The notes under the pieces are model-generated. The model ran no database searches. It had not been told where the DNA came from and was given only the letters and a program-made list of their open reading frames with translations. From a virus (taxonomy: Duplodnaviria > Caudoviricetes), in IMG/VR virus record IMGVR_UViG_3300017767_000012, positions 1 to 58,787 of that record: a DNA stretch of 58,787 bases. The stretch is one strand, 5' to 3'. Made by a program: the position numbers and the translations under genes. Position 1 is the first letter of the stretch, and each line of letters starts with the position of its first letter. This document shows positions 716 to 53,104 of this stretch, in pieces.

Positions 716-1188
716 CTATTGTTATTTCTATACTGGATGTTATCTTTAATAGTATTATAGTCTGAAGCACTACCTCCTGCACCCTCTTCTACAACCATGA
801 CCTGATCGTACCCAGTCCTTTCTATAATCTTAGTCTTTATCTCCAACTGCTTCTTCTCCTTCTGTATGCGTCTCAGGAAAGCGTAATAGATAATCTGTGT
901 AAAGTATGCAAAAGGATTCTTTGACTTCTCTGGATTGAAATTATGGATGTATTGGACACAATTCTCTATACCGTCACCAATCATGTCTTCTCTAAACATA
1001 TAGTTTACAAAGTTCGGTTTATACGACAAATGAGTTGCGATCTTTAAAAAACAATCACCCAAGTAATTACTAATCAATGGTGGATCTATACCTTTCTCTT
1101 TTGCAATAGCACACTTATTTCTATAGACTACCATTGCCTCTAGAAGTTCTTTATTATTGACATAATGATCCGATCTTTTGCGTGGCAT
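712..1188 (-). CDS. g55: T4-like late transcription sigma factor gp55
   Basis: HYVNNKELL, YMFREDMIGDGIENC, NPFAYFTQIIYYAFLRRIQKEK motifs. Confidence 0.95.
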   Translation of the reverse strand: MPRKRSDHYVNNKELLEAMVVYRNKCAIAKEKGIDPPLISNYLGDCFLKIATHLSYKPNFVNYMFREDMIGDGIENCVQYIHNFNPEKSKNPFAYFTQIIYYAFLRRIQKEKKQLEIKTKIIERTGYDQVMVVEEGAGGSASDYNTIKDNIQYRNNNR

Positions 1189-38446: not shown

Positions 38447-38454
38447 TATTTATA
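38447..38454 (-). promoter_or_regulatory. Late promoter TATAAATA overlapping the g7 stop
   Basis: Exact consensus. Confidence 0.75.
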
Positions 38455-41400
38455 GAAGTTTGGGCAGAGCTCCTGTTCCCCTATGCCCAACACCCCTTCG
38501 TAAAACTAGAGGGAACTTGCTAAGTTCATTGTCATAAGACAATCCCTTGACATCAAGAGCAATAGGAGATCCTGCTCTGTTTACATCGCCAAATCTTCCC
38601 CAAGTGAAGTGAGCGTAAGCAAATCCAGTGGATCCTACGCCAACCATATCACTAGTGTCAGTGTATGATGCTATGTTAGCAGTAATGATGCCTTGACGAC
38701 CACCATTACGGTAACTAATTGCACTTGCATAGTAAATATTATCTCCATAATATGTGCTGATAGAAACTATATCAGTGTCATGCGTATCAATACTTGTTAT
38801 AGCAATTCCTGCTGTATTAATACCTGTTCCATATAATTTGAATGGATAGTTTGTTGAGAATCCTGTTGCATCATTACCATTGTTAACATAATCTTGATTA
38901 TCAATTAGAATCTCAAGTGCCAAATCAGTACCGATACCAGCAGTAGTTCCTATACCAGTAACCACACCTATGTATCCAGCAACATCAGCAACTAATGGTT
39001 CTATACCAGATAGATTTTCAAAATTAACACCAGTGGCAGCAGTTGTACCAAAACCAACAGGAGCAATAGCAAGTAAACCAAACGATTCTGTTAGTAAACC
39101 ATCAGTATCTTTAAAGTTGCCAACAGTATCTACAAAAACTGCAGTATCTGTTGTAGAAAGAACTCCAATAATATTTCCAATAGGATTGATTTGAGCTTCA
39201 TATGAATCTCTTGCTTTAGAAACTAAAGAACCATCAATAAACAAATCTCCCTTCTGCTTAATCCATGTCATAGGTTTGTAGTTATCGTTACTAACACCTG
39301 GACCTTGATAGAATGGAGTTTCTACCGTAGCAGCACTATCAATTCTCTTGATAATTCTATCTTCAATTTGTGCAAAGTTTGACTGATCTTTAGTAACTTT
39401 ATTGAACTGCATTTCAGCACTCTTATCTAATCTTAAAGCGTCACCTTTCTTGATATTTTCATTAATATCAAATATGAAACTATCTTGTCCTATTGTTCCT
39501 CTGTAGAAGAAGATAACAACATTATCATTTACAGTTGGAGCACTAGAGAATTCTATAATAGAACCACCAGTAAAGACATAGTTTAAATTTGGTTCTTGAA
39601 GTACTCCGTTAATGAATACTAATAGAACAGTAGATAAATCAATTTCAGTAGAGTCTTGATCGTTTCTGTCAATTTCAAAACTGACCAACTGTGACTGATA
39701 GAATAGTGGGAATCTCATCTGATTTCCATCTTGATTTGGTTTGATGTTATCAAGATAATCAATATTACCAAACTGCCAAGAAGCAACTGTATCAGTAAAG
39801 ACTTCTATTACTTCTAGTTCAAAGTTTCTAAAGTTATCACCTGCTTTAGGATCTGTAGAAAGACCAGCAACAGTAAATACATCTCCACGCTTAAATCCAT
39901 ATCCTTTCTTACTAAACTCCCAGTTAGAAACTTCAGCAAGAGTTGATCCAATACCAGTGGCAGTTTGAATACCAGATATTTGAACACTAACAGAACAACC
40001 AACACCAGTTTCTGTTCCACCACCAATTCTTGATAATCCAACAATAGGTAGATTTTCACCGTTTGGTTCAGGAGCAAAGACGGAATCATATTCACCAGTG
40101 TATCCAGTTCCACCAGCACCAATACTGAATATCAAAGATCCACCAGCACCAACAAGAGCATTAATTTCTGCATTGACTCCTTTAGTTGGAGATGACAATG
40201 CAATACCAATAGTTCCTAATCCAGTTTGATATCCAGAACCAAAGGATAGAGGATACCATTGAGCGACAGTACCACCTTGAACATAAGTATGCCCAATTGT
40301 GTTAGGTCCGACATTTACTTCAAATGTGCGAGCAGAAACAATACCAGAGATAGGATATGCCTCATCGAAACTTGGGAATAGATTGCTTGTAACACCAACT
40401 TGAACTACTCCACCACCAGTATAATCATGCTGTAAAGTAGAGACTCCAACGAATGTTTCAAATGATGTTGTTGTTCCAACAGATCTAACTTTAAAGTGAT
40501 AACCAAATTTTCCTGTTGGATATGTTTTAGTACCATATGCACAAGTAACACCTATACCTCTCAATTTTAAACTTTCGGGAGCAACTAATCCATGATTCTG
40601 AGCAGTAAATCTAACAATACCAGTCTCAGGATTATATACTGCATTTGATACAGTTAAAGCAGCACCTGCCCAAGAATCGATATAAAGTGTGCTAGAAGCA
40701 GCACTTACAAATCTGTGTTCAAATCCACCACCAGTTCTAATCGCTCCAGTTGATGCATTGGCAAAAGTATGAGCATAGTTTCCACCACTAATAACTGCGT
40801 TTGATGCTTCATGACCTGCCATGATATCATAACGATGCTCACTAGTATCAGTTGAAATACCTGCTTGGAAAGTAACAGTTCCATTTTGTTTTCTAATACC
40901 ATTTGCTACTGAACCAGCAAATCTATGAACATATTGATCACCAGTATTAGTCTTACCAACATCTATAGCAAATGAATTTACTGTTGTACTTGCAACCGCT
41001 ACCCAATCACCGCTAATTGGATCGGTAATTCTTGGATATAAATGAGGGGTAACATAGTTATCTTGTGAACACTCAAGTTTAATTGAATTATTCTCGATAA
41101 GAACATAATTGCCGTTCATCATTCCATGACCAGTAGCAGTTACTGTCATAATACCTGCAACAGGATCATAAACAATATCTTCTGCAGTATCTAAAGTATA
41201 TCCAGCAGTAATTTTAATTGGTTGGTCAAATGATCTATCACGCTTCTGATCCATACTACCAACACCAGCACTAACGAATGTATGGTTGTATGCACCGCCA
41301 CCAACAATTACTGATCTAGTAATACTATTAGGTGTTCCTGATACAAAAGTATGTGTGGCATTGTCATATGACTTCATGCCATTGGTTCTGAATGTATTAG

Positions 41401-44400
41401 TAGTTACATTAGAAACTTTAATCCATGTATTATGATAAGGATCTTTAGGTCTAGGATATCCACAAACTTTTTGATTATTATCTCTAGTACATGTGAAGTT
41501 AACTGATCCATCATCAAACTTGACATAATCACCATTTGAAAGTCCATGATTATTGACTGTAACAGTCATAATACCAACAACAGGATCATAAGATGCACTG
41601 ATTGGTGTTAACTTATCATTTGGAACATGATGATGAGTTGATACATTACTTGATGGTTGAGTTGGTAGTATCTGGAATGAAATAGTACCTACTGTAGTAG
41701 AAGCAATAGAGACTGCAGTATTATAACCAACAGTATCAGTTGACCTTGGATAATAATGTATACTCTGGAAAGTATCAAGACCACATCTAAATGCTAATGA
41801 TTCTGGAGATATTCTTATGCTAGTACCAGTCATGAATTCATGATCAGGTATACTAACTGTCACAATACCAGCAGTGGGGTCATAGACAGCACTAGAGATA
41901 GCAAAAGGTTGTATAGGTGACTTACCTACATTAACAGCAAATGATGTTGTTCCTATGCCTGTAATTGGTACCCACTTACCACTGTAAGGATCGGTTGATC
42001 TTGGATATGATTTGGTAGATGTTCCACCATCCATATCGCAAGTAAACCTTATAGAGTCGTTATCAAATTTTACAAAGTCTCCATCATGTATTAAACGACC
42101 ACCAGGAATTACAGTAACTGTCATGATACCAGCAGTAGCATCATACTGAGCACCATTAATAGTTTGTGTATCAATAATATTGCGTGGATATGTATGAGTT
42201 GAAATATAATTGTCTGTCTCACATCTAAAGATTAGAGAACCTTCTTTCAACTTAATAGAAGTTCCATCTTTAAGAGGATGTTGTCCGATAGTAGCAGTTA
42301 CAATACCTGTTGATGGATTGTAAGTTGCAGTAGTAATACTATAATTAACAATAGGAGAAGTTCCTACAGTTATGGCAATACCTGTTGCAGTAGTAGATGC
42401 AACGGAAATTGCTCTGTCAAAATATGGATCAGTTGTTCTAGGATATGACTTAGTAGTGGAAAGACCATCCATCGCACACTGGAAATTGATTGATTCTTGA
42501 TCAATCTTGATACTAGTTCCAGACATAATATTATGTGACCCAATAGTCACTGTCATGATACCAGCAACTGCGTCATAAACAGCATCTACTGGTGTATATC
42601 TTACCTGAGTTGATATACCAACATTTACATCAAATTCATCTCTGGTTACATTCCTAACTTCTAAGAACTTATTGTTTGCAGTATCAGTAGATCTTGGATA
42701 TGTATGATTGGTTCTATAACCATCCATATCACAAGTAAAGGTCAATCCATCAGTTACTATACCTACTAAATTTGGATCAGTAAATCCATGTGTAGAGTCT
42801 GTAATTATTGTAGCAATACCAACAAGATGATCATATACAAATGATGTTATACCGAGAGTTGTTATTCCTGAGATGTAGTCAGAACAAGTAAATTCTAAAC
42901 CAACTAACTTAGAAAAATCTTCAACTCCAAATCTATGTACTTTTGCAGTAGATACAGTTGCAAGTCCAGTTGTCTTATCATAATCCACACTTTCGATATC
43001 TATGAAATCACTAGTTGTTGGTATACCAGTAAAACCAGTGATAGCACCATCTTTACCAGTAGTTACTTGAATCTTAGCACCTTTAAATGGAGCATATCCT
43101 TGACCTGGTGTGGATGCAACAGAAATTATGATGCCACCTCTAGGTAGTTGATTCTGGTTAATATCACCTTCATCTATTATTAGATCAGTAAATCCAAACG
43201 AACTAATACCTGTATAGTTAACACTAGCAATACCTCCAAGACTTTGTTCAATAATCTCGAAGTTTGCAACACCTTCATTGTTCTCACCAAATGGTGCTTG
43301 GAACATACTGTTAATAAACAGAACTCCGTTACCACCAGTTGAACCAATACCAGTTACAGCAACACCTGTAGATGTTAGTGGGAATATATTTTCTAAACCA
43401 TCAAAACCATCTGAGTTGTCATCAAATACTTGGTTAGTTGCATAATCTTGTCTTAAGTAAGTTCTTCCACTAAATGTTGCTCTAGGAGTAAGAAGATTAC
43501 CAGCATCAATAATACCCAAGTCACCACCAAGAGGTGCTTCTGTAAAATAGATATCACTATCAACAATCTGGAAAGCACCTCTATAAATTCTTGCAGTTGA
43601 TCCAGCAGAATGCACTGTTGCTGCACTACCGACTGAACCTCTTTCTATTTCAACAAGACTCCAAGTTCCAATACCAGTAATAGGTCCTGTAGTTGTGCTA
43701 CCAAAACCAACTGTTTGAACAATATTATATTCATCATCTATTTTAAGTAAATCGCCAGATGTTATTGTACTTAATCCACTTAAAGCAAAGCAAGTAACAA
43801 AACCGTTAACAGCAACATCTAAGTCGTATGTTACTGATGTATGTGATAGAGGTTTCTGTACTAATCCATTAAGAGTAATCATGGATTTAGAATCTCTCTT
43901 ATCCATTGTAAACTTGTGAAGGTTACCTTGACCTTTATCTTGTGCAAAAGTAACTGCTTTACCAACTCTAGCATCAGTAATTGATGTGGAGATAAAGAAT
44001 TGATTATTATTAGATTTTACAATAAAACATTCACTTGGAAGTACAGTTGATCCATATCCAGTAGAATACTCTAAAGAACTGGCAGCAATTCCAATAATAT
44101 TAGAATCTGGTAGATATGATACTTTTTCTGTATTAGAGAAGAAATGTTTTAATGTAATAAGTCCTGTTTCTTTATTAATCTCATTAACATTTTGAGGGTT
44201 AAATGCTCTTTGGTAAATTGGAGTACTTTGATACTTTAATCCAAACTTTCTAAGGTTTCTATTGTTTATACCCAAGTAAGTATTTTGAGTTTGATTTTCA
44301 AATACTTGTCCATAGTTAAATGATCCAATACCAGCAAGAAGTCCATTAGGATCATTTTGTTGATATATTATCTCATTATAAGAGAAGATACTAACAATAC

Positions 44401-47400
44401 CTGTTACTCCTGCATCTGGATAGAATTCTAGATTAACTTGGTCACCACTAAACTCAGCACCAAATGTTCCAATACCAGTAGTCGTTCCAACTGCAGCAAT
44501 AGGTCCTTGAGATAAGAATGTATCTACTTTAACTGGATCTGATAAAACATATATTTGATGGAATGTTTGAGTACTTCCGTAACTTACAGAAACTGTAGAT
44601 TTGAAAGATAGATCAGTAAATGATGTAATTCCACATACAGTTGCAATTCCTGTTGTTGCAGAGGAACCTACAACTATTCTTCCACTTCTTTCCGATCCTT
44701 CGGGTGTAAATGGAATGTTAAAGTGCTTCACTGATGTAGTTCCATATCCAACAGGATTGAAATTTAAGAACTTACATCTAAGGTCTATGCTATTTGCCTC
44801 ACTGTGAACATATTTAAGTTTTACAACTCCACCTGCACCAGTATCAATAGAAGAAGTAAATGTTCCCATAAACTGTGGAGAAGATAATCCACCAAGACTT
44901 TGCCTATTATTAAATGCTCCTACCTCAGTCAAATAAGTATCAACACCATCATGTTGTAAGACTACCTCATGATAATCTACTTTATTAGAGTTTTTATTAA
45001 TGACTACGATATGTCCATGAACACCTGCCAAATTAACTGTATTGATTCCTACAATATCGGTTGTTGTGCCCGAACCTACTGAAATATTAACACTCCTAAC
45101 TTCTGCATTACCTAATTCAGTTTGACCAGTACCAACAGCATCAGCAAAACCTTGCTGGAATGCTTTAATATCATAGTTTGTATCAAATGGTTCGTAAGGT
45201 TTAATTCTTACCTGTGTTTGTCCATTATTAATATTATATTGAGCAAAGAACTCACCATATCCAGTTGCTAAACCAACTTGGTTTGTATTGTTGAGAGCAC
45301 TCTTTTGAACTAAGAAAGTATCATCATTACATGAAATAAGAATTAATTCATTTAATTGAAAATGATTCTTAGCTGGATCTTGTGCTTCGTGTATTGTTTG
45401 TACAAGATATCTTGAGAAATATCTACCAGCAATAGTAGCAGCAATAACTCTACTGTCACTTAAATCGTTTGATTCATTGCTAATGAATTGGGAACTAATG
45501 TCATCATGTAAGAGAACTCTATTTGTTTTACATAGAATAAAATCTGCAAGTCTTGTTTGCTGAAGTTCTATAAACTTAGATAGATTATCAGCAGAATTTG
45601 CATCTCTAGCAATATCAAAATTGTAAATAGAATCTACTCTAAGTGGATCACTAACAAAGTCAAGAACTAATCCACCAGCATCTGCAGCAGGAATAAATGT
45701 ATCACCAGCATTACCTTTTGCTAAAATTTGAGTGTTTGCAAAGTTTTTAAATCCTGCAGGGTGTACAATATCATTAACATATGTAATTAGTTCTTCATAT
45801 GTCTTTTCACTCTCAATAGCATAAGACATATTCTGATAGTAATCATTATCTGGTAAGAATTGATTATTATCACCAATTAGACCAATATTATCTGCCCAAC
45901 CTACATTCGTATCAATTGTTGATGCAATTTCAAAATAACCATCAAATTCTGTAATTGCTTGAACTTCGCATACATCACCACTATTAGTTCCTAGTAATTT
46001 ATCGTCAATTTGAAGATTTATAGATCCACTAACAACCATGATGCCTGTATTGACATCAATATCGGTCATTATCAAATCTGTGAATAAATCACTGTTTCTT
46101 CTTAATGGTTCATTAGTTCTAAATTCTGAGAATGTTTTAGTTGCATCAAATCTCGCAAGATCTCCAGATTTTACAATTTGACCAAAACCAGTAACCACAG
46201 TTGCACCAATACCAGGATTACTACTCAATCCAGTGTATGTAAATGTAACCTGTCTTGGGTTTACTGCACTATTATAATCTGCTATCTGAAAATCAATAAA
46301 TTTATAATCTCCAGAGTTGAATCCGTCTCCAGTACCAGCAGTAAAATCTATACCCTCAAGAAAAACAGATTCGCCAATAGTAAATGGTTCCGTGTCATAT
46401 CCAAGAATAGGCGTAGTAATTTTACAAGTAAGAACTCCTACATCTGAAAATGCCTCAATAATACTAATACCATTACTATTTCTTAAAGGTGCAATACCAT
46501 AATCGTTACCTGTTAAACCTCTAGGTTCAACAATAACATTGACTTTGTTTACAGCAGTATCACTCAATTCCGCAGTAAGAAGACCATTAGTAACTATTTC
46601 TCCAGTTGTCTTATCAAATACAGCAAGAGCAGGTGCATTAAGATATGATCTACCACCAAATAGAACTGATGCGGAGAGAACCTTACTCGCATTCTTAATT
46701 AGTAGAATTCTAGGCAAGAATGCATCTGGGTTCAATGTACCATCAGAAGGATATCCATAAACATCTGTAGGAACACTTACATCTCCTAGTAGGTTGATAT
46801 CTGTTCCAAATAATTCTAATTCTGCACTAATACCACTAGATCCAACAGAAGTTACAGCAGGAAGTCTCTGATATCCAAATCCACCGTTAATAATTCTTAT
46901 TTGCGATATACCGCCAGTTGCTGCAGCACCTGTATGACTATAATATAATTCAGCACAATCTTCTTGAGTGTAATGATCTTTTTCTGGTTCTGCACCAATG
47001 TTAGCAGTAAATACAGTTCCAGCTACTCCAGTTGCAATATACTGCTTTGCATTATACCCACTGTCAGCATATTTTATCTCATTTCCGTATAATACATCAG
47101 TTTCGCTAGTTGTAATATATCCACCTTTCTCTATTGCATAATAAAGAGTGTTTTTAAGACTATCACTATAATTAATCTGCTTATATGGTAGATCAGGAGG
47201 ATTTGTTGTTCCGATACCAACTGTACCCACTCCAACAACTTCTAGATTTGCAGTAGATCCTGTTCCGACATATTCGTTAAAATTATTTCTATCATAGAAG
47301 AATTTGAGTTTTGCTCCTAATAGACTAGGATCATTAAGGTCAAATACAATATTATTTTCACGGAATACTGTAACTGGTGGATTGATAGGATTGATAGTTT

Positions 47401-50400
47401 GTCCACTATATCCTACAGATGTAAATCCAACAACTTCAGGTGGATCCGCACGAAGTTGTTTTTCGGTATTTGCTAGTTGGAATTGATCTGCGTCAATCTT
47501 TAAAACATAATATGTTCTTTGTTCTAATCCAGCAGGAAGTTGAGATGGATCTCCACCAGAACCATACATTAAAACTTTAAATCCTGTATCTAAAGCATGA
47601 TCCTCAACAGTAAATATACTAGTTGTGGTATTAACTCCGCTTGTAGGAATATCTAAAGGATTAATAACTGTATAACCGTCAATCAGTTTAACCGTTGCTC
47701 TTGTAGAAGTACCAATACCAGTAGTCAATCCTGTTTTGACTATTAAATCAAATCTATCATTTTCTTCTAAACCATGATCTTCAGTTGTTTGAATAGTTAC
47801 CTGACTTCTTCTAACAGTTGCAGTTTCTTGTTTATAGTTAGTTACTACTGAATAATTTGCCTTATCATCACCTGTTGTAGTAAAGAACAGAGCAGGACCG
47901 TCTGTATTAGTTTTAAGACCAATAGTATCAGGTGATTTATTGATAACATAAAAATCACCACTCAAAGCACTTGGAGCAGTATACGGACTTATGGAATCAG
48001 TAGCAAAAAGGTCAGTATTACCTCGTTTGTCGAAGGTGACCTTAGCATTAGTTTTAAGACCATGATTAGGTAAATGTATAGTTTGTGCAAGAATAGATCT
48101 TTGTTTAGTAACTCCGTTAAGAGATACATCAACACTAGTCGAGATTCCAACCGTTGTTCCAACACCAACAGATTCTTTAGGGTTAAAATAGATTAAATTC
48201 TGAAAACTAGAGTCAAAAGGATTTGTCTCTACAGGAACTGTGAACTCACTAGTAAAGTATGTAACAGCAGATCCTACTGCAGCAGTAGTAAAACCAGCAT
48301 ATCTTTCTATTCTAACAATTTTTTCATTAGGGAAGAAACCAAGAATACGAGCAGTTTCTGTACCAATACCAATAGAGTCACCTACTGCAACATTATCAGG
48401 AACAAAGTCAACTCTTAGATCTGTGATAATACCAGTATAACCATTATCTGTCAAAGATGCGGAATAACTTGCAACTGCAATCTTTTTAAATCCTTCTAAT
48501 CCTTTAATATAAGTTGATATGCCAGTTACTCTTACAGTATCTGATCCTTTAAATTCATGATACGGAGTTGCTTTGAAAACAACACCCTGTCTGGTGTGTT
48601 TGATAGGAAGATTTGATAATGTAATTACAGAACTACTAATATTATCAATTGGTTTTCCGTGAAGTTTCTTAACTTCTGCATCTAGACCAACACCATTTGT
48701 GCCTGTATTATCAAAAATTACTTTCTCACCAATACTGTATCCAGAACCTCTACTTAAGATATCAATGGTTTCTACAGCACCTTGCAATAGATTGCTTGGA
48801 TTTGAAACCTGATTATTAGTTCTATATGGTTGGAACAGATAATCATAACTAACACCATCTCCAAATAAGTTATATGGTTGTGTATTTCTTACAAGTTCTG
48901 AATTATTAAAGTCAAAAGTAACTTGATCTAGTAATTTGCCTTTTACAGTATTTTCTTCAATAGCAAAAGATCTATATGTGTCACCAACAAAGAATGGGAA
49001 TTGGGGATCATTTAAAAGATCTACTGTGGCAAAATACGCATAGACTCCTTGAGGGAAATCGGGAGTTTTAGTAAACCTTCCATTATGTTCGTCTAAATCT
49101 CCGTTTCCAGTGTAGACATAATCGTCTATAAAATATCCATATGGGAATAATGATGAAGGAGGTCTATTTTCAATATTGGTCGCTGATATATCATAACTAG
49201 ATACCATCTTCTTAACATCAGACTGAACACTATCAACATCAACAGATCCATAAGCACCGTATATTGGATTTCCATCATATGCCCAACCAATGATAGGAGA
49301 ATGCCCTGTTCCATCATCTGCAAAGAAATTTCTAATAGTATTACCGTATCCAACAATGTTAAGTGCTAGACCGTCTCCAATTGGTTGTAGGAAGTCCATT
49401 TCGGACTGATTCAAGCGATATGCCTTATTAACAGTTAAACCCCTTACAGTCGCTTCTGCCTTAAACTCGGAACCAACAGGCACAACATTAACACTAGTAT
49501 TAGTTGCTGCATATCCAACACCGCCAGATATAACTTTAACATCTGTGATTGAACCACTATCATTTACAATAGCTCTTAAGATTGCACCTTGAGATGTAGT
49601 TGCTACACTAACCACATTGAGATCAGGAGGTCCTACATAACCACTTCCTCCATTCGCAACAAATGCATCAGTAACACTACCCTTTGCAACAACGATACCA
49701 ATCTGACCCAAATTTCCTGTAGGGACACTAATGATAGGTGGATTTGGGAAATTTAAAATTGTGGATCCATAGTTTGAACCTTGGTTATACACTAAAATAT
49801 CATCAATCTGTCCCTTAACAACTGGAGTCGCTGTAGGTTCTTTTTCTTGTTGATCTTTAGTTAATACTTTAACTTTACATACAATTGGCGGATATTTGAA
49901 AAGGTGATATCCAGAACCAGCACCCATAGAGTCTAGGTATACATTCTGACGATTAACATAATTTGTTTCCGTTGCCTCTCTATCGCCTTTGTTACCTGCT
50001 TCCGCAAGTCTAAACTTATCGTCGTCTATCTTTAGTACTTGATACTGTTTCGTTGTACTGAGACCTGTTATGACAGCGTTTGTGCCATTTTCATACTCAA
50101 CTACTTCTCCATCTGTAAGTCCATGATTAATAAACTCAACAGAATCATTAAAAGTATTAATTCCAACTGGTTTTACTAAAATATTTCTATTTGCGTAACC
50201 TGAACCAGTATCTTCTAAACTAATTCTACTAATAGTGCGTTTTTTATCAAAAGTACGGAAAATATGAAGACCTGCGTTACTTGCAGCAGCATTTTCTTCA
50301 ATTAATATTGTATTAATACCAATAATCGAATCTTGCTTATTATTATGAAGAGTAAAGTCTTTTGAGTTAATAACATTAATATAATAATCTTGACCACCAA

Positions 50401-53104
50401 ATAATGTTAAAGTATCATTAACTCCTCCTGTTGTAGCAACACCAATGTTGGTACCACCGTTATTATCGTATACAAGTCTATCTCCAGTTAAGAAGTTATG
50501 ATCTTTATTAAGATTGAATGAATTATAAGTTGAACTAACATCACCACCAAGATTAGTGCTAATACCATTAAAAAATACTTGTCTAAATCGTTCTTCAACT
50601 AATGCTCTACCAATAGCACCACTACCATTACCACCATAAATTTCTACGCTAATAACCTTATCAAGGTCATAGTCAAATGGGTCAATAAGAATACTTGATA
50701 CAATTCCGCTTAAAACTGGAACTGCACCTGCAGTATTTCCGATACTAACAGTTTCGTCAGTAATAGTGATGTTTGGAGGTGCCTGAACATCATAACCTGC
50801 ACCACTGTTTAAAACATTGAGTTTATTTACAGGACCGTAGAAGAGTGTATCCGCACCTTTATAGTTTAATATCTCAATACCATTCACAAGCATTCCTGTA
50901 TTACCATCTACGGTAATTTCGGAAGTAGTTTGACCTTCTTTACCGCTTTTGAGTTGCTGCTCTAAAACATATCTTTTTATAGGTCTTGCAGGGAAGATAT
51001 TCCTTTTTCCTTGACTAGCAAGTATAAAATCATGTCTACCTGTGGGTAAAGTTGGTGCAACAAAGAATGATGGTAAATTTGCTTTAATAAAAGAACGAGA
51101 TGGATATAATTTTATTTTATTTTTTGAACTTAGTACTTCTACAAAATAACTTGGAGAATCTAACGCACCAATAACCTGTGTTCCTGGTTCTGGTGCATAT
51201 ATGATTTCATCTCCAGTTTCAAATGGAACATCTGCTGCAAAAGAAATAATACTATATCTGTTTTCTACACTATCGTATCCTTCCCAGTTTCCAGAAGCAA
51301 TAGAAGGATTTATCAACTCCGCATGAATTCTATCAGAATCTATAGTGTAACTAGGAAGAGAACTAGAAGCAACATAACCTTCTCTCTTTGATGATGCTGA
51401 TTTAGACTCATCTACGATATATGCATTATTAATATCTGTTAATAACTGTTCTTGTCCACCTTTTACTGGAACAATTGAAGATTTTACTTTATTTTGCAAT
51501 CTTCGCACATCATATAATAAAAGAGGGTCAAGAGTAGGAATACTACCGTCAAGACTGATAGATGAAGCAGTTGTATCAATACTATCAACAATTAGAGAGC
51601 TAGCAACAAGAACTTCGCTGTTTCTACGCAAAATTTCAATTTTATCACCAACTTTTAAACTGCTTTTTTCAATAGTACCAACAAGGGTAAATATGGATCC
51701 AGCAAAACTTAAAATTTCGTATCTAGTAGATGTATTGTAAACCCAACTATTAAAAAACACCTCTTCATAGGATTTACTGATAACTGGGTTGGCAATATAG
51801 CGTCCTAAGTTCTTTACCTTGATAGCCGAGGTAGATTTTAAATTTCGGAGAGGTCTGCTAGTATTAAATTTAGAAAGTACACCAGTTAGACGCATTTCTA
51901 CCTTTTTAGTAGAATCTCCACCCTCATACCCATAAACAATGTTAAAAGTAGATACTGTACTGTTGTTTGGTATCTCTATACTAACTGGAGGAGCAACATC
52001 AAAGAATTGATTGATGCTTTTTGAGTCATATGTAAATGTCTGATAAAATGATGTGCCAATTTCACCAACTTTGATTGTACCAGTGCTAGAAAACCCAATT
52101 GTAGAATCTACGGTAATAACAGACGCACCAATACCAATTATTCCAATATTACTACTTCGTCCAGGTACTACGAAGGTACCATCAGTCAAACCTCGTTCAT
52201 CAAAACCTGTAAAGAGAGAAAGTTTGAAATAATCGTCTCTAATTAGCGATACTTCAGAAATAGGACCTGACGCTTCGTTTAATTGAGGGTTTGTTGGATC
52301 ATTATCTTGGAAAAGTGTCTGACCAACTAATTCTTGAGGATTACCAGATATTAATTGAACAGAAACAGTCTTTCTACGCAAATAATTCGCAAAAGATGGT
52401 TTTATTAGATATTTCTCTAAATCATTGATTTTTGGATCAACTCCAAACAGTGCTTTGAAAAGAATTTTAAAAGATGCACGAGTTCCCTTTGCTTCATATA
52501 AACTTCTTGCTTCTTTTATGAAATTATTAACATCTAACTGAGGTGAAAGCGTTACTCCCTCTAAACCAGGAGCATACATCGCTTTTAAATTCTTATAAAA
52601 TTCTTTTAAGAATAAAGAACTAAGATTTACTACATTTGCACCAGTAGTATGAATTCCAGCAATAGTTTGTTGCCATACTAATTCATCTGGGTCGTTTTGT
52701 TTGGAAAATGTAGAGATTCCACTAAAACCACGCCAAACACCAGTAAAACTATTTGTAGTTACGCCACTATAACTGCATATTTCATTATCGATCTGAAAAA
52801 GACCATATTTTTGAGGATATCCATCAGTACTATCTACTGTAACTGTAGTATCTGTTGATGAAATAGTACCAACAAGTGTAGTTGTACCTCTTATTACATC
52901 AGTAGTTAAATTATCAACTTTAATATACGCATCAATATTCTCCGCAATGTCTGCAGGTCCACCTTGGAAGTCTTGAGAGATATAATACTGTTCTAAGAAT
53001 TTGGAGAACAGAGGATTCTCTGACTTAGCAAATTCTGGTATAATTTCGCTAACGACTTGATAAGTTTTTACCCTAGGACTTAAGGGAGAATATGTTTCGA
53101 TCAT
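38450..53104 (-). CDS. g7: Giant baseplate wedge initiator gp7 (4884 aa)
   Basis: FLEQYY, YEAKGT..SFKILFKALFG, DNDYYQNMSY, VHPAGFKNF; between g6 and g8. Confidence 0.88.
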   Translation of the reverse strand: MIETYSPLSPRVKTYQVVSEIIPEFAKSENPLFSKFLEQYYISQDFQGGPADIAENIDAYIKVDNLTTDVIRGTTTLVGTISSTDTTVTVDSTDGYPQKYGLFQIDNEICSYSGVTTNSFTGVWRGFSGISTFSKQNDPDELVWQQTIAGIHTTGANVVNLSSLFLKEFYKNLKAMYAPGLEGVTLSPQLDVNNFIKEARSLYEAKGTRASFKILFKALFGVDPKINDLEKYLIKPSFANYLRRKTVSVQLISGNPQELVGQTLFQDNDPTNPQLNEASGPISEVSLIRDDYFKLSLFTGFDERGLTDGTFVVPGRSSNIGIIGIGASVITVDSTIGFSSTGTIKVGEIGTSFYQTFTYDSKSINQFFDVAPPVSIEIPNNSTVSTFNIVYGYEGGDSTKKVEMRLTGVLSKFNTSRPLRNLKSTSAIKVKNLGRYIANPVISKSYEEVFFNSWVYNTSTRYEILSFAGSIFTLVGTIEKSSLKVGDKIEILRRNSEVLVASSLIVDSIDTTASSISLDGSIPTLDPLLLYDVRRLQNKVKSSIVPVKGGQEQLLTDINNAYIVDESKSASSKREGYVASSSLPSYTIDSDRIHAELINPSIASGNWEGYDSVENRYSIISFAADVPFETGDEIIYAPEPGTQVIGALDSPSYFVEVLSSKNKIKLYPSRSFIKANLPSFFVAPTLPTGRHDFILASQGKRNIFPARPIKRYVLEQQLKSGKEGQTTSEITVDGNTGMLVNGIEILNYKGADTLFYGPVNKLNVLNSGAGYDVQAPPNITITDETVSIGNTAGAVPVLSGIVSSILIDPFDYDLDKVISVEIYGGNGSGAIGRALVEERFRQVFFNGISTNLGGDVSSTYNSFNLNKDHNFLTGDRLVYDNNGGTNIGVATTGGVNDTLTLFGGQDYYINVINSKDFTLHNNKQDSIIGINTILIEENAAASNAGLHIFRTFDKKRTISRISLEDTGSGYANRNILVKPVGINTFNDSVEFINHGLTDGEVVEYENGTNAVITGLSTTKQYQVLKIDDDKFRLAEAGNKGDREATETNYVNRQNVYLDSMGAGSGYHLFKYPPIVCKVKVLTKDQQEKEPTATPVVKGQIDDILVYNQGSNYGSTILNFPNPPIISVPTGNLGQIGIVVAKGSVTDAFVANGGSGYVGPPDLNVVSVATTSQGAILRAIVNDSGSITDVKVISGGVGYAATNTSVNVVPVGSEFKAEATVRGLTVNKAYRLNQSEMDFLQPIGDGLALNIVGYGNTIRNFFADDGTGHSPIIGWAYDGNPIYGAYGSVDVDSVQSDVKKMVSSYDISATNIENRPPSSLFPYGYFIDDYVYTGNGDLDEHNGRFTKTPDFPQGVYAYFATVDLLNDPQFPFFVGDTYRSFAIEENTVKGKLLDQVTFDFNNSELVRNTQPYNLFGDGVSYDYLFQPYRTNNQVSNPSNLLQGAVETIDILSRGSGYSIGEKVIFDNTGTNGVGLDAEVKKLHGKPIDNISSSVITLSNLPIKHTRQGVVFKATPYHEFKGSDTVRVTGISTYIKGLEGFKKIAVASYSASLTDNGYTGIITDLRVDFVPDNVAVGDSIGIGTETARILGFFPNEKIVRIERYAGFTTAAVGSAVTYFTSEFTVPVETNPFDSSFQNLIYFNPKESVGVGTTVGISTSVDVSLNGVTKQRSILAQTIHLPNHGLKTNAKVTFDKRGNTDLFATDSISPYTAPSALSGDFYVINKSPDTIGLKTNTDGPALFFTTTGDDKANYSVVTNYKQETATVRRSQVTIQTTEDHGLEENDRFDLIVKTGLTTGIGTSTRATVKLIDGYTVINPLDIPTSGVNTTTSIFTVEDHALDTGFKVLMYGSGGDPSQLPAGLEQRTYYVLKIDADQFQLANTEKQLRADPPEVVGFTSVGYSGQTINPINPPVTVFRENNIVFDLNDPSLLGAKLKFFYDRNNFNEYVGTGSTANLEVVGVGTVGIGTTNPPDLPYKQINYSDSLKNTLYYAIEKGGYITTSETDVLYGNEIKYADSGYNAKQYIATGVAGTVFTANIGAEPEKDHYTQEDCAELYYSHTGAAATGGISQIRIINGGFGYQRLPAVTSVGSSGISAELELFGTDINLLGDVSVPTDVYGYPSDGTLNPDAFLPRILLIKNASKVLSASVLFGGRSYLNAPALAVFDKTTGEIVTNGLLTAELSDTAVNKVNVIVEPRGLTGNDYGIAPLRNSNGISIIEAFSDVGVLTCKITTPILGYDTEPFTIGESVFLEGIDFTAGTGDGFNSGDYKFIDFQIADYNSAVNPRQVTFTYTGLSSNPGIGATVVTGFGQIVKSGDLARFDATKTFSEFRTNEPLRRNSDLFTDLIMTDIDVNTGIMVVSGSINLQIDDKLLGTNSGDVCEVQAITEFDGYFEIASTIDTNVGWADNIGLIGDNNQFLPDNDYYQNMSYAIESEKTYEELITYVNDIVHPAGFKNFANTQILAKGNAGDTFIPAADAGGLVLDFVSDPLRVDSIYNFDIARDANSADNLSKFIELQQTRLADFILCKTNRVLLHDDISSQFISNESNDLSDSRVIAATIAGRYFSRYLVQTIHEAQDPAKNHFQLNELILISCNDDTFLVQKSALNNTNQVGLATGYGEFFAQYNINNGQTQVRIKPYEPFDTNYDIKAFQQGFADAVGTGQTELGNAEVRSVNISVGSGTTTDIVGINTVNLAGVHGHIVVINKNSNKVDYHEVVLQHDGVDTYLTEVGAFNNRQSLGGLSSPQFMGTFTSSIDTGAGGVVKLKYVHSEANSIDLRCKFLNFNPVGYGTTSVKHFNIPFTPEGSERSGRIVVGSSATTGIATVCGITSFTDLSFKSTVSVSYGSTQTFHQIYVLSDPVKVDTFLSQGPIAAVGTTTGIGTFGAEFSGDQVNLEFYPDAGVTGIVSIFSYNEIIYQQNDPNGLLAGIGSFNYGQVFENQTQNTYLGINNRNLRKFGLKYQSTPIYQRAFNPQNVNEINKETGLITLKHFFSNTEKVSYLPDSNIIGIAASSLEYSTGYGSTVLPSECFIVKSNNNQFFISTSITDARVGKAVTFAQDKGQGNLHKFTMDKRDSKSMITLNGLVQKPLSHTSVTYDLDVAVNGFVTCFALSGLSTITSGDLLKIDDEYNIVQTVGFGSTTTGPITGIGTWSLVEIERGSVGSAATVHSAGSTARIYRGAFQIVDSDIYFTEAPLGGDLGIIDAGNLLTPRATFSGRTYLRQDYATNQVFDDNSDGFDGLENIFPLTSTGVAVTGIGSTGGNGVLFINSMFQAPFGENNEGVANFEIIEQSLGGIASVNYTGISSFGFTDLIIDEGDINQNQLPRGGIIISVASTPGQGYAPFKGAKIQVTTGKDGAITGFTGIPTTSDFIDIESVDYDKTTGLATVSTAKVHRFGVEDFSKLVGLEFTCSDYISGITTLGITSFVYDHLVGIATIITDSTHGFTDPNLVGIVTDGLTFTCDMDGYRTNHTYPRSTDTANNKFLEVRNVTRDEFDVNVGISTQVRYTPVDAVYDAVAGIMTVTIGSHNIMSGTSIKIDQESINFQCAMDGLSTTKSYPRTTDPYFDRAISVASTTATGIAITVGTSPIVNYSITTATYNPSTGIVTATIGQHPLKDGTSIKLKEGSLIFRCETDNYISTHTYPRNIIDTQTINGAQYDATAGIMTVTVIPGGRLIHDGDFVKFDNDSIRFTCDMDGGTSTKSYPRSTDPYSGKWVPITGIGTTSFAVNVGKSPIQPFAISSAVYDPTAGIVTVSIPDHEFMTGTSIRISPESLAFRCGLDTFQSIHYYPRSTDTVGYNTAVSIASTTVGTISFQILPTQPSSNVSTHHHVPNDKLTPISASYDPVVGIMTVTVNNHGLSNGDYVKFDDGSVNFTCTRDNNQKVCGYPRPKDPYHNTWIKVSNVTTNTFRTNGMKSYDNATHTFVSGTPNSITRSVIVGGGAYNHTFVSAGVGSMDQKRDRSFDQPIKITAGYTLDTAEDIVYDPVAGIMTVTATGHGMMNGNYVLIENNSIKLECSQDNYVTPHLYPRITDPISGDWVAVASTTVNSFAIDVGKTNTGDQYVHRFAGSVANGIRKQNGTVTFQAGISTDTSEHRYDIMAGHEASNAVISGGNYAHTFANASTGAIRTGGGFEHRFVSAASSTLYIDSWAGAALTVSNAVYNPETGIVRFTAQNHGLVAPESLKLRGIGVTCAYGTKTYPTGKFGYHFKVRSVGTTTSFETFVGVSTLQHDYTGGGVVQVGVTSNLFPSFDEAYPISGIVSARTFEVNVGPNTIGHTYVQGGTVAQWYPLSFGSGYQTGLGTIGIALSSPTKGVNAEINALVGAGGSLIFSIGAGGTGYTGEYDSVFAPEPNGENLPIVGLSRIGGGTETGVGCSVSVQISGIQTATGIGSTLAEVSNWEFSKKGYGFKRGDVFTVAGLSTDPKAGDNFRNFELEVIEVFTDTVASWQFGNIDYLDNIKPNQDGNQMRFPLFYQSQLVSFEIDRNDQDSTEIDLSTVLLVFINGVLQEPNLNYVFTGGSIIEFSSAPTVNDNVVIFFYRGTIGQDSFIFDINENIKKGDALRLDKSAEMQFNKVTKDQSNFAQIEDRIIKRIDSAATVETPFYQGPGVSNDNYKPMTWIKQKGDLFIDGSLVSKARDSYEAQINPIGNIIGVLSTTDTAVFVDTVGNFKDTDGLLTESFGLLAIAPVGFGTTAATGVNFENLSGIEPLVADVAGYIGVVTGIGTTAGIGTDLALEILIDNQDYVNNGNDATGFSTNYPFKLYGTGINTAGIAITSIDTHDTDIVSISTYYGDNIYYASAISYRNGGRQGIITANIASYTDTSDMVGVGSTGFAYAHFTWGRFGDVNRAGSPIALDVKGLSYDNELSKFPLVLRRGVGHRGTGALPKLL
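40256..43007 (-). repeat. Nine diverged beta-domain repeats within gp7
   Basis: Recurrent Y[DN]xxxG...H...C..D....YPR..D and H[TR][FY] motifs. Confidence 0.85.

What the first reader, a model, noticed from the sequence alone, without database searches (positions are those of the whole stretch)
40256..43007. Russian-doll (nested) domain architecture in gp7: nine repeats that open and close like balanced parentheses
Seen: nine 'opening' segments with a Y[DN]xxxG...C pattern (YDKTTG, YDHLVG, YDAVAG, YNPSTG, YDATAG, YDPTAG, YDPVVG, YDPVAG, YNPETG) and nine His-containing 'closing' strands (THHHV, THTFV, NHTFV, VHRFA, EHRY, AHTFA, EHRFV, QHDY, GHTY). The first five openings have no closer directly after them, and the closers pile up later. 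Repeat 1 stops at EFTCSDY and its missing half (NLFPSFDEAYPI...TFEVNVG...HTY) appears about 800 aa later. Repeat 4 stops at HTYPR and resumes at RDRSFDQPIKITA and then NGTVTFQAGIS...EHRY. Inference: each domain was inserted into a loop of the previous one, so the chain runs out and back and builds a rigid or branched stalk on the baseplate instead of beads on a string. The unit resembles E1-FCCH-like beta-barrels seen in phage proteins. This would be a recursive route for extending a virion appendage.
Basis: partly seen in the sequence, partly recalled or inferred. Interest (0 to 1): 0.8.

Follow-up and report, generated by a model that had tools for sequence, protein, structure and literature searches.

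The report
Nested beta-barrels in cyanophage baseplate protein
A giant baseplate protein of a marine T4-like phage carries nine small beta-barrel domains plugged into one another's loops like Russian dolls, a rare way to build and vary a virus appendage.

Summary
All nine Y[DN]xxxG openers and nine His strands sit at aa 3366-4283 of a 4884-aa ORF (window 38450-53104, minus strand). The ORF lies between gp6 and gp8.

The nested reading is supported. A profile of the ~90-aa unit finds seven units with a continuous core. It finds two truncated units, u1 (profile columns 2-42) and u4 (2-55), whose missing parts lie 800 and 310-430 aa downstream. Three orthologues lack exactly unit u8 and carry an uninterrupted u4 C-part.

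In relatives, split units have complementary profile coordinates in last-in-first-out order. The number of displaced His strands tracks the number of units that lack one.

AlphaFold2 models give discontinuous domains. In the window model (pLDDT 67.7), 56-88 aligned residues span model positions 1..930, 49..785 and 225..747. In a homologous four-barrel module (pLDDT 91.9, pTM 0.83) they span 91..405 and 1..430.

The unit has the E1-FCCH / FNR / EF-Tu-domain-2 barrel fold (Z 9.2) and resembles the endosialidase barrel (Z 10.1).

My parse is u1(u2(u3(u4(u5(u6 u7) u8))) u9), six levels deep. No coordinates or experiment were available. The strand assignments for u3 and u5, and the function, are inferred.

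The parts
38450..53104 (-). Giant ORF of 4884 aa at the gp7 position of a T4-like baseplate gene block
   Evidence: Searches give the ORF. Its neighbours are gp25 and gp6 upstream and gp8 downstream by Pfam. The protein has a YHYH domain at aa 1265-1362 and a weak Baseplate_wedge match at aa 189-225.
42875..43009 (-). u1 N-part (aa 3366-3410): strands b1-b4 only, ending at 'F.C'
   Evidence: It matches profile columns 2-42 only. All 19 orthologues have the same truncated piece. Its pLDDT is 75-84 in the full model.
42608..42853 (-). u2 core (aa 3418-3499): b1-b7, with no His strand of its own
   Evidence: define it. It abuts u3. In the model, alignments of 66-88 residues span 49/53..782-785.
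42353..42607 (-). u3 core (aa 3500-3584): b1-b7, with no His strand of its own
   Evidence: define it. It abuts u4.
42179..42352 (-). u4 N-part (aa 3585-3642): b1-b5, ending after 'YPR'
   Evidence: It matches profile columns 2-55 only, iE 1.7e-20. The same holds in all 19 orthologues.
41915..42163 (-). u5 core (aa 3648-3730): b1-b7, with no His strand of its own
   Evidence: define it. It abuts u6.
41615..41914 (-). u6 (aa 3731-3830): complete unit with its own His strand
   Evidence: It matches profile columns 2-91, iE 3e-29.
41333..41614 (-). u7 (aa 3831-3924): complete unit with its own His strand
   Evidence: It matches profile columns 2-91, iE 1e-35. The His-strand matrix scores it 20.2.
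41255..41332 (-). Displaced His hairpin (aa 3925-3950), assigned to u5
   Evidence: The matrix scores it 19.4. The assignment rests on last-in-first-out order and on the strand counts, so it is inferred.
41198..41254 (-). u4 middle part (aa 3951-3969): strand b6
   Evidence: In orthologues P0007, P0175 and P0177 this piece and the next u4 piece are continuous and match profile columns 55-88.
40907..41188 (-). u8 (aa 3973-4066): complete unit inserted in the b6-b7 turn of u4
   Evidence: It matches profile columns 2-89, iE 6e-33. It is absent as one block from 3 of 19 orthologues.
40823..40888 (-). u4 C-part (aa 4073-4094): b7 and the His strand
   Evidence: The profile match is weak: columns 71-88, iE 4.9. 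It aligns with the continuous C-part of P0007. Model alignments of 65-87 residues span 225..747.
40751..40807 (-). Displaced His hairpin (aa 4100-4118), assigned to u3
   Evidence: The matrix scores it 15.6. The assignment rests on order and counts, so it is inferred.
40694..40750 (-). Displaced His hairpin (aa 4119-4137), assigned to u2
   Evidence: The matrix scores it 17.0. Model alignment ranges that start in u2 end at model residues 782-785, just past this hairpin.
40409..40654 (-). u9 (aa 4151-4232): complete unit of the 'FP/YP-type', sibling of the u2 nest inside u1
   Evidence: It matches profile columns 2-89, iE 1.7e-17. Its best structural matches are E1 FCCH 4p22_B at Z 9.2 and phi92 endosialidase 4hiz_C at Z 10.1.
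40274..40384 (-). u1 C-part (aa 4241-4277): b5-b8, about 830 aa after the u1 N-part
   Evidence: The profile match is weak: columns 58-87, iE 0.058. It is found in all 19 orthologues at iE <= 1. Model alignments of 56-81 residues span 1..922-930 at Z up to 7.0. The two-chain test gave weak support.

Best explanation
Residues 3366-4283 of the gp7-position baseplate protein are a recursive, same-family domain insertion.

**The unit.** It is a ~90-aa eight-stranded barrel (b1-b8) with the E1-FCCH / FNR / EF-Tu-domain-2 fold. Its last strand is the conserved 'xYxHTFVSA' His strand. Whole units are plugged into loops of other units, so a host's sequence is interrupted and resumes after its guests.

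**Parse of the window protein.**
- u1 = b1-b4 | guests | b5-b8. Its b4-b5 loop holds the u2 nest and u9.
- u2 = b1-b7 | u3 nest | b8.
- u3 = b1-b7 | u4 nest | b8.
- u4 = b1-b5 | u5 nest | b6 | u8 | b7-b8.
- u5 = b1-b7 | u6, u7 | b8.
- u6, u7, u8 and u9 are continuous.
- The depth is six.

**Consequences.** The chain leaves and re-enters at the same point, u1. The 900-aa array is therefore a side branch, and its units can be gained or lost without moving the flanking parts of the wedge protein. Orthologues do differ by whole units.

**Status of each step.**
- Shown by sequence: the complementary pieces, the orthologue indels and the strand counts.
- Predicted by AlphaFold2: the reunion of the pieces of u1, u2 and u4.
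- Inferred: which displaced His hairpin closes u3 and which closes u5; rigidity; and function. I take the function to be a peripheral baseplate decoration that spaces or binds the cell surface, by likeness to the polysialic-acid-binding barrel of endosialidase tailspikes.
For: **1. Profile coordinates in the window protein.**
- Seven units have a continuous core.
- u1 matches columns 2-42 only, and an orphan piece matching columns 58-87 lies at aa 4244-4274.
- u4 matches columns 2-55 only, and a piece matching columns 71-88 lies at aa 4074-4091.

**2. Orthologue indels.**
- P0007 is 65% identical (535 of 822 aligned positions). It lacks exactly u8 and has an uninterrupted u4 C-part (columns 55-88, iE 0.005).
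- 3 of 19 orthologues are like this.
- Between the u1 N-part and u2, the number of His-like motifs equals the number of extra units in 17 of 19 orthologues by regex: 0/0 seven times, 1/1 three times, 2/2 six times and 3/3 once. The other two agree by eye.
- In the alignment the two losses are separate gaps.

**3. Relatives.**
- S-SSM7 gp7 has three split units with matching coordinates around one to three complete units: 2-27 | 27-82, 3-26 | 24-88 and 2-25 | 25-88.
- S-P4, P0008, P0032 and P0059 show two to three typed levels closing in reverse order.
- Over 150 representatives, 38 continuations fit the top of the stack. 2000 shuffles gave a mean of 16.1 and a maximum of 27.

**4. Strand bookkeeping in 40 simple nests.**
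- For breaks at columns 19-32 or 55-57 (30 nests), His strands after the guests equal 1 plus the number of abutting junctions in 26 of 30. None precedes the guests in 29 of 30.
- For breaks at columns 43-52 (10 nests), no His strand follows the guest in 10 of 10. One precedes it instead: 6 of 10 by matrix, 10 of 10 by eye.

**5. Order of closers in the window.** The order is hairpin, u4 C-part, hairpin, hairpin, u1 C-part. That is the exact reverse of the openers, 1 of 20 possible orders.

**6. Structure predictions.**
- The window segment gave mean pLDDT 67.7 and pTM 0.45.
- Single-domain PDB chains align to it with wide ranges. 56-81 residues span 1..922-930: 4 of 50 rows; 3 of 50, best 6efv_A at Z 7.0, rmsd 2.9, 78 aligned.
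- 66-88 residues span 49/53..782-785: 4 rows; 9lc0_I at Z 7.9.
- 65-87 residues span 225-228..747-748: 8 rows.
- The u1 N-part has only about 45 residues and the u4 N-part 58, so part of each alignment must come from the far piece.
- The homologous four-barrel module of L008 gave pLDDT 91.9 and pTM 0.83.
- Of its 50 alignment rows, 22 span 91-95..405-407 and 10 span 1-5..425-437, with 66-96 residues aligned. These are the two abutting units, closed by the first and second trailing His strand in last-in-first-out order. A further 14 rows are the continuous guest.

**7. Insertion sites.** All five fall in loops of the DSSP map.

**8. Two-chain test of the u1 N-part with the u1 C-part: weak support.**
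- Score 0.32; best of 3 controls 0.00.
- The mark was reached by 58 of 80 solved complexes and 2 of 110 mismatched pairs. At 0.60 or under it was reached by only 7 of those 80 and by both mismatches that passed.
- The runs agree in at least 82% of contacts, and the partner's pLDDT is at least 57.
- My own alignment was used, so the counts hold only roughly.
Against: - No coordinates were available. Domain reunion is read only from the first and last aligned residues of structural alignments to predicted models.
- The window model is of middling confidence: 125 residues are below pLDDT 50 and pTM is 0.45.
- The far pieces of u1 and u4 score weakly against the profile. The u1 piece has iE 0.058 and 1.8. 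The u4 piece has iE 4.9.
- No listed alignment row spans u3 plus its proposed hairpin (about 140..758) or u5 plus its hairpin (about 288..590). None spans the split host H (179..382) of the L008 module. Those assignments rest on counting and analogy.
- The automated family-wide parses are noisy. One search gave 17 misfits and 67 continuations without a detected opener. One search gave 103 fits, 59 misfits, 150 closers without an opener and 181 openers left open; the nulls were 86.3 +/- 4.3 (max 99) and 70.0 +/- 5.8 (max 90).
- Abutting units and extra closers are equal in only 70 of 155 proteins. Many of these proteins are fragments.
- The two-chain test gave only weak support.
- Function and rigidity are untested.
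Confidence: 0.8

Rival explanations
1. Only the multi-strand splits are true nests: u1 around everything, and u4 around u5-u7 and u8. The 'abutting' units u2, u3 and u5 are complete without an eighth strand. The three extra His hairpins form their own small sheet or pair in some other order, not last-in-first-out.
For: - The listed rows include no alignment that joins u3 or u5 to a distant hairpin.
- All His strands look alike, so sequence alone cannot say which barrel each one enters.
- Abutting and extra-closer counts match in only 70 of 155 proteins.
Against: - In the high-confidence L008 model the two abutting units align as 91-95..405-407 (22 rows) and 1-5..425-437 (10 rows). Each reaches a different trailing His strand, in last-in-first-out order.
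- In the window model u2 reaches residue 782-785.
- Trailing strands equal 1 plus the number of abutting junctions in 26 of 30 nests.
- P0002 repeats the pattern '()' six times.
Confidence: 0.12
2. This is an ordinary tandem array, beads on a string. The truncated pieces u1 and u4 and the orphan C-parts are decayed repeat remnants and do not reunite. The His hairpins are degenerate fragments.
For: - Seven of nine units have a continuous core.
- The orphan pieces score weakly (iE 0.058 and 4.9).
- The two-chain test is only weak support.
Against: - Remnants would not have complementary profile coordinates in reverse order across many proteins.
- Remnants would not be conserved in all 19 orthologues.
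- Remnants would not be restored to a continuous half-domain exactly where a whole unit is missing.
- Remnants would not give barrel-sized alignments spanning both ends of the model at Z 6-7.
- In the two-chain runs each half's pLDDT fell from 58-63 to 36-39 when the other half was replaced.
Confidence: 0.05
3. The pattern comes from intermolecular strand or half-domain swapping between the copies of the protein in the baseplate. Incomplete units would be completed by pieces from a neighbouring chain, not by distal pieces of the same chain.
For: - Baseplate wedge proteins are present in several copies. This is general knowledge of T4-like baseplates and was not tested here.
- Sequence counts cannot tell cis completion from trans completion.
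Against: - Monomer models close the units in cis with high confidence: pLDDT 91.9 and pTM 0.83.
- The reverse order of closers is what cis nesting requires. Trans swapping has no reason to produce it.
Confidence: 0.03

Closest known systems
Si3 insertion of cyanobacterial RNA polymerase beta' (nested sandwich-barrel hybrid motifs)
   Same: [quoted passage not shown]
- A survey of 2.7 million domains names its six-level nest as the extreme case (passages of PMC13114784).
- The depth here, six, is the same.
   Different: - The protein and its context differ: a virion baseplate here, a polymerase trigger loop there.
- There is no sequence link. The unit profile against all PDB sequences gave only two weak, unrelated hits.
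- Structural likeness to Si3 is not shown. 8emb_C reached only Foldseek rank 14 with TM 0.05-0.07.
- Here there are five distinct insertion sites and circularly permuted guests, and whole units are gained and lost between close orthologues.
E1 FCCH domain / FAD-binding barrel of ferredoxin-reductase-type enzymes / EF-Tu domain 2 (one barrel fold)
   Same: - The fold of the unit matches.
- u9 against E1 fragment 4p22_B: Z 9.2, rmsd 2.3, 79 aligned.
- u9 against human UBA1 9mc4_A: Z 8.9. Against mouse FCCH 2v31: Z 7.8.
- FNR-type barrels give Z 6-7.8 and EF-Tu/SelB domain 2 gives Z 6.5-6.7. One search gives similar values for the L008 guest.
   Different: - Sequence identity is 13-20%.
- Pfam E1_FCCH matches only 18 residues at 17.4 bits, below the 29.5 cut-off.
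- There is no enzyme context. Nothing suggests shared function.
Beta-barrel domain of phage endosialidase tailspikes (phi92 4hiz, K1F 3gvk)
   Same: - It is the best structural match in the second-look search: Z 10.1, rmsd 1.7, 77 aligned for u9. 3gvk_A gives Z 9.2. The L008 guest gives Z 8.2.
- It is also a phage tail protein domain.
- In K1F this barrel holds a polysialic-acid binding site and is a host-discrimination hotspot (passages of bioRxiv 10.1101/2025.10.06.680778).
   Different: - It is a single copy there.
- Identity is 11-20%.
- The binding residues were not compared, so a sugar-binding role here is only a lead.
T4 gp7 baseplate wedge protein
   Same: - The gene sits between gp6 and gp8, with gp25 upstream.
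- There is a weak N-terminal Baseplate_wedge match.
- Relatives are annotated gp7 in S-SSM7.
   Different: - This protein has 4884 aa, a YHYH domain and the nested barrel array.
- The Pfam wedge match is below threshold: 20.7 bits against 27.
Tandem Ig-like / FN3 arrays of phage fibres and adhesins (beads on a string)
   Same: Both are repeated small beta domains in a virion appendage. Whole-model Foldseek hits are to such arrays at TM <= 0.16.
   Different: There the domains are continuous in sequence and the chain runs one way. Here the chain runs out and back, and both ends of the array meet in one barrel.

Membership tests
Nested (recursive) domain insertion, as in cyanobacterial Si3 | The host domain's sequence is interrupted, and the two parts are complementary parts of one domain | tested here: met
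   u1 matches columns 2-42 plus 58-87, and u4 matches columns 2-55 plus 71-88, or a continuous 55-88 in P0007. Relatives have 2-27 | 27-82 and similar pairs.
Nested (recursive) domain insertion, as in cyanobacterial Si3 | The inserted piece is itself a whole domain that can be present or absent | tested here: met
   u8 matches profile columns 2-89 and is missing as one block in 3 of 19 orthologues. Extra units vary from 0 to 3.
Nested (recursive) domain insertion, as in cyanobacterial Si3 | The host parts reunite in three dimensions | tested here: inconclusive
   Only predictions were available. Alignment ranges 1..922-930, 49/53..782-785 and 225..747 have 56-88 residues aligned. In the L008 module the ranges are 91..405 and 1..430. 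The two-chain test gave weak support: 0.32 against a best control of 0.00. No coordinates and no experiment.
Nested (recursive) domain insertion, as in cyanobacterial Si3 | A guest is itself a host (two or more levels) | tested here: met
   u1 contains u4, which contains u8 and u5-u7. Typed multi-level examples are P0008, P0032 and P0059.
E1_FCCH (Pfam PF16190) | Score at or above Pfam's gathering cut-off | tested here: not met
   17.4 bits against a 29.5 cut-off, on 18 residues. One relative, P0176, reaches 31.8 bits on 20 residues.
E1_FCCH (Pfam PF16190) | The same barrel fold | tested here: met
   4p22_B gives Z 9.2, rmsd 2.3 and 79 aligned. 9mc4_A gives Z 8.9 and 2v31 gives Z 7.8. These are on predicted models.
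T4-type gp7 baseplate wedge protein | Gene order gp25-gp6-gp7-gp8 | tested here: met
   Pfam hits GPW_gp25, Gp6-like_1st and Phage-Gp8 lie on the flanking ORFs.
T4-type gp7 baseplate wedge protein | Baseplate_wedge domain (PF23786) above threshold | tested here: not met
   20.7 bits against a cut-off of 27, at aa 189-225. Several relatives carry a precomputed PF23786 hit.
Endosialidase beta-barrel (sialic-acid-binding) domain | Structural likeness of the barrel | tested here: met
   4hiz_C gives Z 10.1, rmsd 1.7 and 77 aligned. 3gvk_A gives Z 9.2.
Endosialidase beta-barrel (sialic-acid-binding) domain | Conserved sugar-binding residues or sugar binding | not tested
   No residue-level comparison or assay was done.
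Sandwich-barrel hybrid motif (SBHM) | Fold or sequence likeness to Si3 SBHMs | tested here: inconclusive
   8emb_C appears only at Foldseek rank 14 with TM 0.05-0.07. It is not among the listed VIA rows. The sequence profile gave no Si3 hit.

The most novel reading that the evidence does not exclude
The unit is a self-inserting barrel that follows a small grammar.
- It has five permitted loop sites.
- Each barrel has one His strand, which may be displaced.
- Guests at the b4-b5 loop are circularly permuted.

Cyanomyoviruses use this recursion to grow and prune return-to-origin branches on baseplate and fibre proteins. It reaches six levels in this window. It may reach seven or eight in relatives such as P0011, which would be deeper than any nest reported so far.
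Probability: 0.55. Interest if true: 0.85.

Novelty: new variant of a known kind. Interest (0 to 1): 0.72.

Why it matters
- **Rarity.** Multi-level nesting of one domain family is rare. A 2026 survey of 2.7 million domains singles out one six-level case, cyanobacterial RNA polymerase Si3 (passages of PMC13114784). This would be a second, unrelated case of equal depth, in a virion protein.
- **Live evolution.** Orthologues at 65-83% identity differ by whole guests, and the bookkeeping (one His strand per barrel) stays intact.
- **A possible design rule.** The branch starts and ends in one barrel, so units can be added or lost without shifting the parts of the wedge protein needed for assembly. 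If true, this explains how these giant cyanophage baseplate proteins vary so much in length.
- **Annotation.** Domain callers will report 'partial' domains and miss the orphan halves.
- **Protein engineering.** The family offers natural examples of which loops of a small barrel tolerate a whole inserted domain.
- **Literature.** My four searches found no paper describing this in cyanophage proteins. The library is limited to open-access papers and preprints, and supplements were closed.

Tried and rejected
- **Sequence search of the 930-aa segment against PDB.** No hit at E <= 1. The unit profile gave only two weak hits: 8bke at E 0.34 and 4he5 at E 1.7. I did not pursue them.
- **The search for related loci with the unit alignment.** It failed because no stretch was conserved enough.
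- **Whole-model Foldseek searches.** Both were uninformative. TM was at or below 0.09 for the window model and at or below 0.16 for the L008 module.
- **NCBIfam.** No family matched. PHROGs gave only 'tail fiber', 'virion structural protein' or unknown families.
- **Automated typed-stack parsing of 155 proteins.** It beats both shuffles but is noisy. Weak pieces are missed, and strands that precede permuted guests are counted as closers. I rely on the 40 cleanly delimited nests instead.
- **One His strand per barrel over 165 long proteins.** The correlation is r 0.76-0.85 with slope 0.96-1.27. This is expected anyway, because most units carry their own strand, so I give it no weight.
- **BLAST of the L008 module against the window protein.** It only aligns units in tandem register. 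It cannot show that the two nests are orthologous.
- **Depth estimates from the automated parse.** They are inflated by unmatched openers and are not used.
- **Regex tokens for the 'FP-type' halves.** 41 matched pairs, 2 closers without an opener and 24 openers left open, in 11 of 155 proteins. Only 3 strings are fully balanced, against a shuffle maximum of 3. This supports P0011 but is not a test.
- **The search of earlier findings.** It was closed.
- **Supplements.** They were closed. SI Appendix Fig. S3 of PMC10895346 (Si3 domain boundaries) and the dataset of PMC13114784 (whether any phage protein is in it) could bear on the comparison and on novelty.

Full report
**What is there.** The window carries a 4884-aa ORF on the minus strand (38450-53104). 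Pfam places gp25 and gp6 just upstream. Downstream it places gp8, a DUF4815 giant and a Laminin_G_3 giant. The ORF therefore sits at the gp7 position of a T4-like baseplate block. Its gp6 is 55-57% identical to that of Synechococcus myoviruses. The 930-aa segment finds 349 phage records, all of them cyanophage or marine-virus records, at under 60% identity. The finding covers aa 3366-4283. 10 of the protein's 12 Y[DN]xxxG matches fall in this stretch.

**The unit.** I built a profile from seven window units. I rebuilt it from 32 complete units taken from the window protein, an IMG/VR relative (L008), S-SSM7 gp7, Sf-FS3 and S-P4. It has 93 columns. On the high-confidence model of a relative, the strands fall at these columns:

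| Strand | Columns |
|---|---|
| b1 | 5-9 |
| b2 | 14-18 |
| b3 | 29-32 |
| b4 | 37-41 |
| b5 | 49-52 |
| b6 | 63-69 |
| b7 | 73-77 |
| b8 (conserved His strand) | 86-92 |

The profile finds 742 of 1.84 billion representative proteins at E <= 0.001. Pfam has no family for the unit. The only match is E1_FCCH on 18 residues at 17.4 bits, below the cut-off.

**Sequence evidence in the window protein.**
- Seven units have a continuous core: u2, u3, u5, u6, u7, u8 and u9.
- u1 matches columns 2-42 only.
- u4 matches columns 2-55 only.
- An orphan piece matching columns 58-87 lies at aa 4244-4274.
- A weak piece matching columns 71-88 lies at aa 4074-4091.
- u2, u3 and u5 have no His strand. After b7 the chain runs straight into b1 of the next unit.
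- Across the family this 'abutting' junction is stereotyped. 99 junctions have a spacing of 14 residues and 41 have 15.
- Three extra His hairpins lie later, with matrix scores of 15.6-19.4.
- The order of closers is hairpin, u4 C-part, hairpin, hairpin, u1 C-part. This is the exact reverse of the openers, one of 20 possible orders.

- P0007 is 65% identical over the segment. It lacks u8 as a single block. At that place its sequence is a continuous half-domain matching columns 55-88.
- 3 of the 19 orthologues examined are like this. So u8 sits in the b6-b7 turn of u4.
- Between the u1 N-part and u2, orthologues carry 0 to 3 extra units. They carry the same number of His-like motifs in the linker that precedes those units.
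- The two counts are equal in 17 of 19 by regex, and the other two agree by eye.
- In the alignment, the loss of a unit and the loss of a motif are separate gaps.

**Relatives.**
- S-SSM7 gp7 has three split units. Their halves meet at the same profile column (27, 24-26 and 25), and they enclose three, one and two complete units.
- S-P4, P0008, P0032 and P0059 show two or three typed levels that close in reverse order.
- Over 150 representatives, 38 continuations fit the top of a stack. 2000 shuffles gave a mean of 16.1 and a maximum of 27. There were also 17 misfits and 67 continuations without a detected opener.
- A fuller typed parse is significant but noisy.

**The 40 cleanly delimited nests** give a sharper rule.

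| Break in host (columns) | Nests | His strands after the guests | His strands before the guests |
|---|---|---|---|
| 19-32 or 55-57 | 30 | 1 plus the number of abutting junctions, in 26 of 30 | none, in 29 of 30 |
| 43-52 | 10 | none, in 10 of 10 | one precedes (6 of 10 by matrix, 10 of 10 by eye) |

Every barrel therefore seems to own exactly one His strand. The strand may be displaced behind its guests. For guests in the b4-b5 loop it is placed ahead of them, so those guests are circularly permuted.

**Predicted structures.**

The tool returns no coordinates. I therefore read domain continuity from the model ranges of alignments to single-domain PDB chains.

*The window segment.*
- I folded it with a 20-row orthologue alignment. 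It gave mean pLDDT 67.7, pTM 0.45 and an all-beta model.
- Continuous units match well. u9 gives Z 10.1 to the phi92 endosialidase barrel. It gives Z 9.2 to an E1 FCCH fragment.

Split ranges in the window model:

| Model range | Aligned residues | Rows | Unit implied |
|---|---|---|---|
| 1..922-930 | 56-81 | 4 of 50; 3 of 50, best Z 7.0 | u1 |
| 49/53..782-785 | 66-88 | 4 rows; one at Z 7.9 | u2 |
| 225-228..747-748 | 65-87 | 8 rows | u4 |

The near pieces of u1 and u4 have only 45 and 58 residues. Part of each alignment must therefore come from the far piece.

*The four-barrel module of L008.*
- Its layout is F1(F2(H(G))), the same as u2(u3(u4(u8))).
- It is conserved at 50-67% identity in many proteins.
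- It folded at pLDDT 91.9 and pTM 0.83.
- 14 of its 50 alignment rows are the continuous guest.
- 22 rows span 91-95..405-407.
- 10 rows span 1-5..425-437.
- So the inner abutting unit takes the first trailing His strand and the outer unit takes the second.
- None of the 50 listed rows joins the pieces of H, of u3 or of u5.

*The two-chain run.* The u1 N-part with the u1 C-part gave weak support.
- Score 0.32; best of 3 controls 0.00.
- The mark was reached by 58 of 80 solved complexes and 2 of 110 mismatches. At 0.60 or under it was reached by only 7 of those 80 and by both mismatches that passed.
- The runs agree in at least 82% of contacts, and the partner's pLDDT is at least 57.
- My own alignment was used, so the counts hold only roughly.

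**Parse and mechanism.** The parse is u1(u2(u3(u4(u5(u6 u7) u8))) u9), six levels deep. The five insertion sites all lie in loops:

| Site | Location |
|---|---|
| 1 | b2-b3 loop |
| 2 | b4-b5 loop |
| 3 | after 'YPR' |
| 4 | b6-b7 turn |
| 5 | b7-b8 loop |

The array begins and ends in one barrel. I infer that it is a side branch of the wedge protein that can grow or shrink by whole units without displacing the flanks. I also infer that it is compact rather than a flexible string. Its function is not shown. The likeness to the endosialidase barrel, which binds polysialic acid in K1F (passages), makes a surface-binding or spacing role at the baseplate rim my best guess.

**Comparison with the known.**
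- Nested insertion of small beta domains is established for the Si3 insertion of cyanobacterial RNA polymerase (passages of PMC10895346).
- A 2026 survey quotes Si3 as a six-level extreme (passages of PMC13114784).
- I found no sequence link to Si3 and no clear structural link.
- My searches found no description of this architecture in phage proteins.
- I therefore rate it a new variant of a known kind: the same principle, in a new family and setting, with its own rules.

**Limits.**
- All three-dimensional evidence is prediction, read indirectly.
- The assignments of two hairpins are inferred.
- The family-wide statistics are noisy.

Noticed in passing
P0011 (unnamed representative, 4057 aa), aa ~300-1100 and beyond: P0011 has runs of N-halves of the u1-type unit (profile columns 2-42, ending 'F.C') followed by the same number of C-halves. 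The first group of the token string has 7 openers and 7 closers, balanced around interspersed complete units. If real, that is up to eight levels, deeper than the window protein. P0043, P0049, P0055 and P0068 look similar but truncated.
   Followed up: partly
window 21429-28550 (-), about aa 1204-1284 of the stop-to-stop frame: One copy of the same barrel unit (profile columns 3-82, iE 6e-26) sits in the neighbouring 2373-aa Laminin_G_3 protein.
   Followed up: no
L008:3004-4314 (+): A four-barrel nested supermodule of about 420 aa is conserved as a block at 50-67% identity in many unnamed giant proteins. P0002 appears to carry six copies: its pattern is '()' six times.
   Followed up: partly
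window 49019-49312 (-), aa 1265-1362 of the giant ORF: A YHYH domain (Pfam PF14240, E 1.1e-23) sits inside the baseplate protein. Its role there is unexplained.
   Followed up: no
L010 (S-SSM7 gp7, ADO98169), aa 1179-1228: In S-SSM7 and P0003 the displaced closing strands carry Tyr where other family members have His ('GGDY.Y' type). My His-strand matrix misses them.
   Followed up: no
P0059 (701 aa): A compact four-unit nest (aa 43-460) is followed by a collagen-like Gly-X-Y tail (Pfam Collagen, E 3e-9). This suggests a fibre with a nested-barrel head.
   Followed up: no
window aa 3411-3417 and orthologues (linker after 'F.C' of u1): The short linker 'GYGNT[LI]' of orthologues without extra units looks like a decayed His strand. 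The insertion that brought in extra units seems to have split it ('GY|KH..' ... '..GLGY|G.T'). This may be a footprint of the insertion event.
   Followed up: partly
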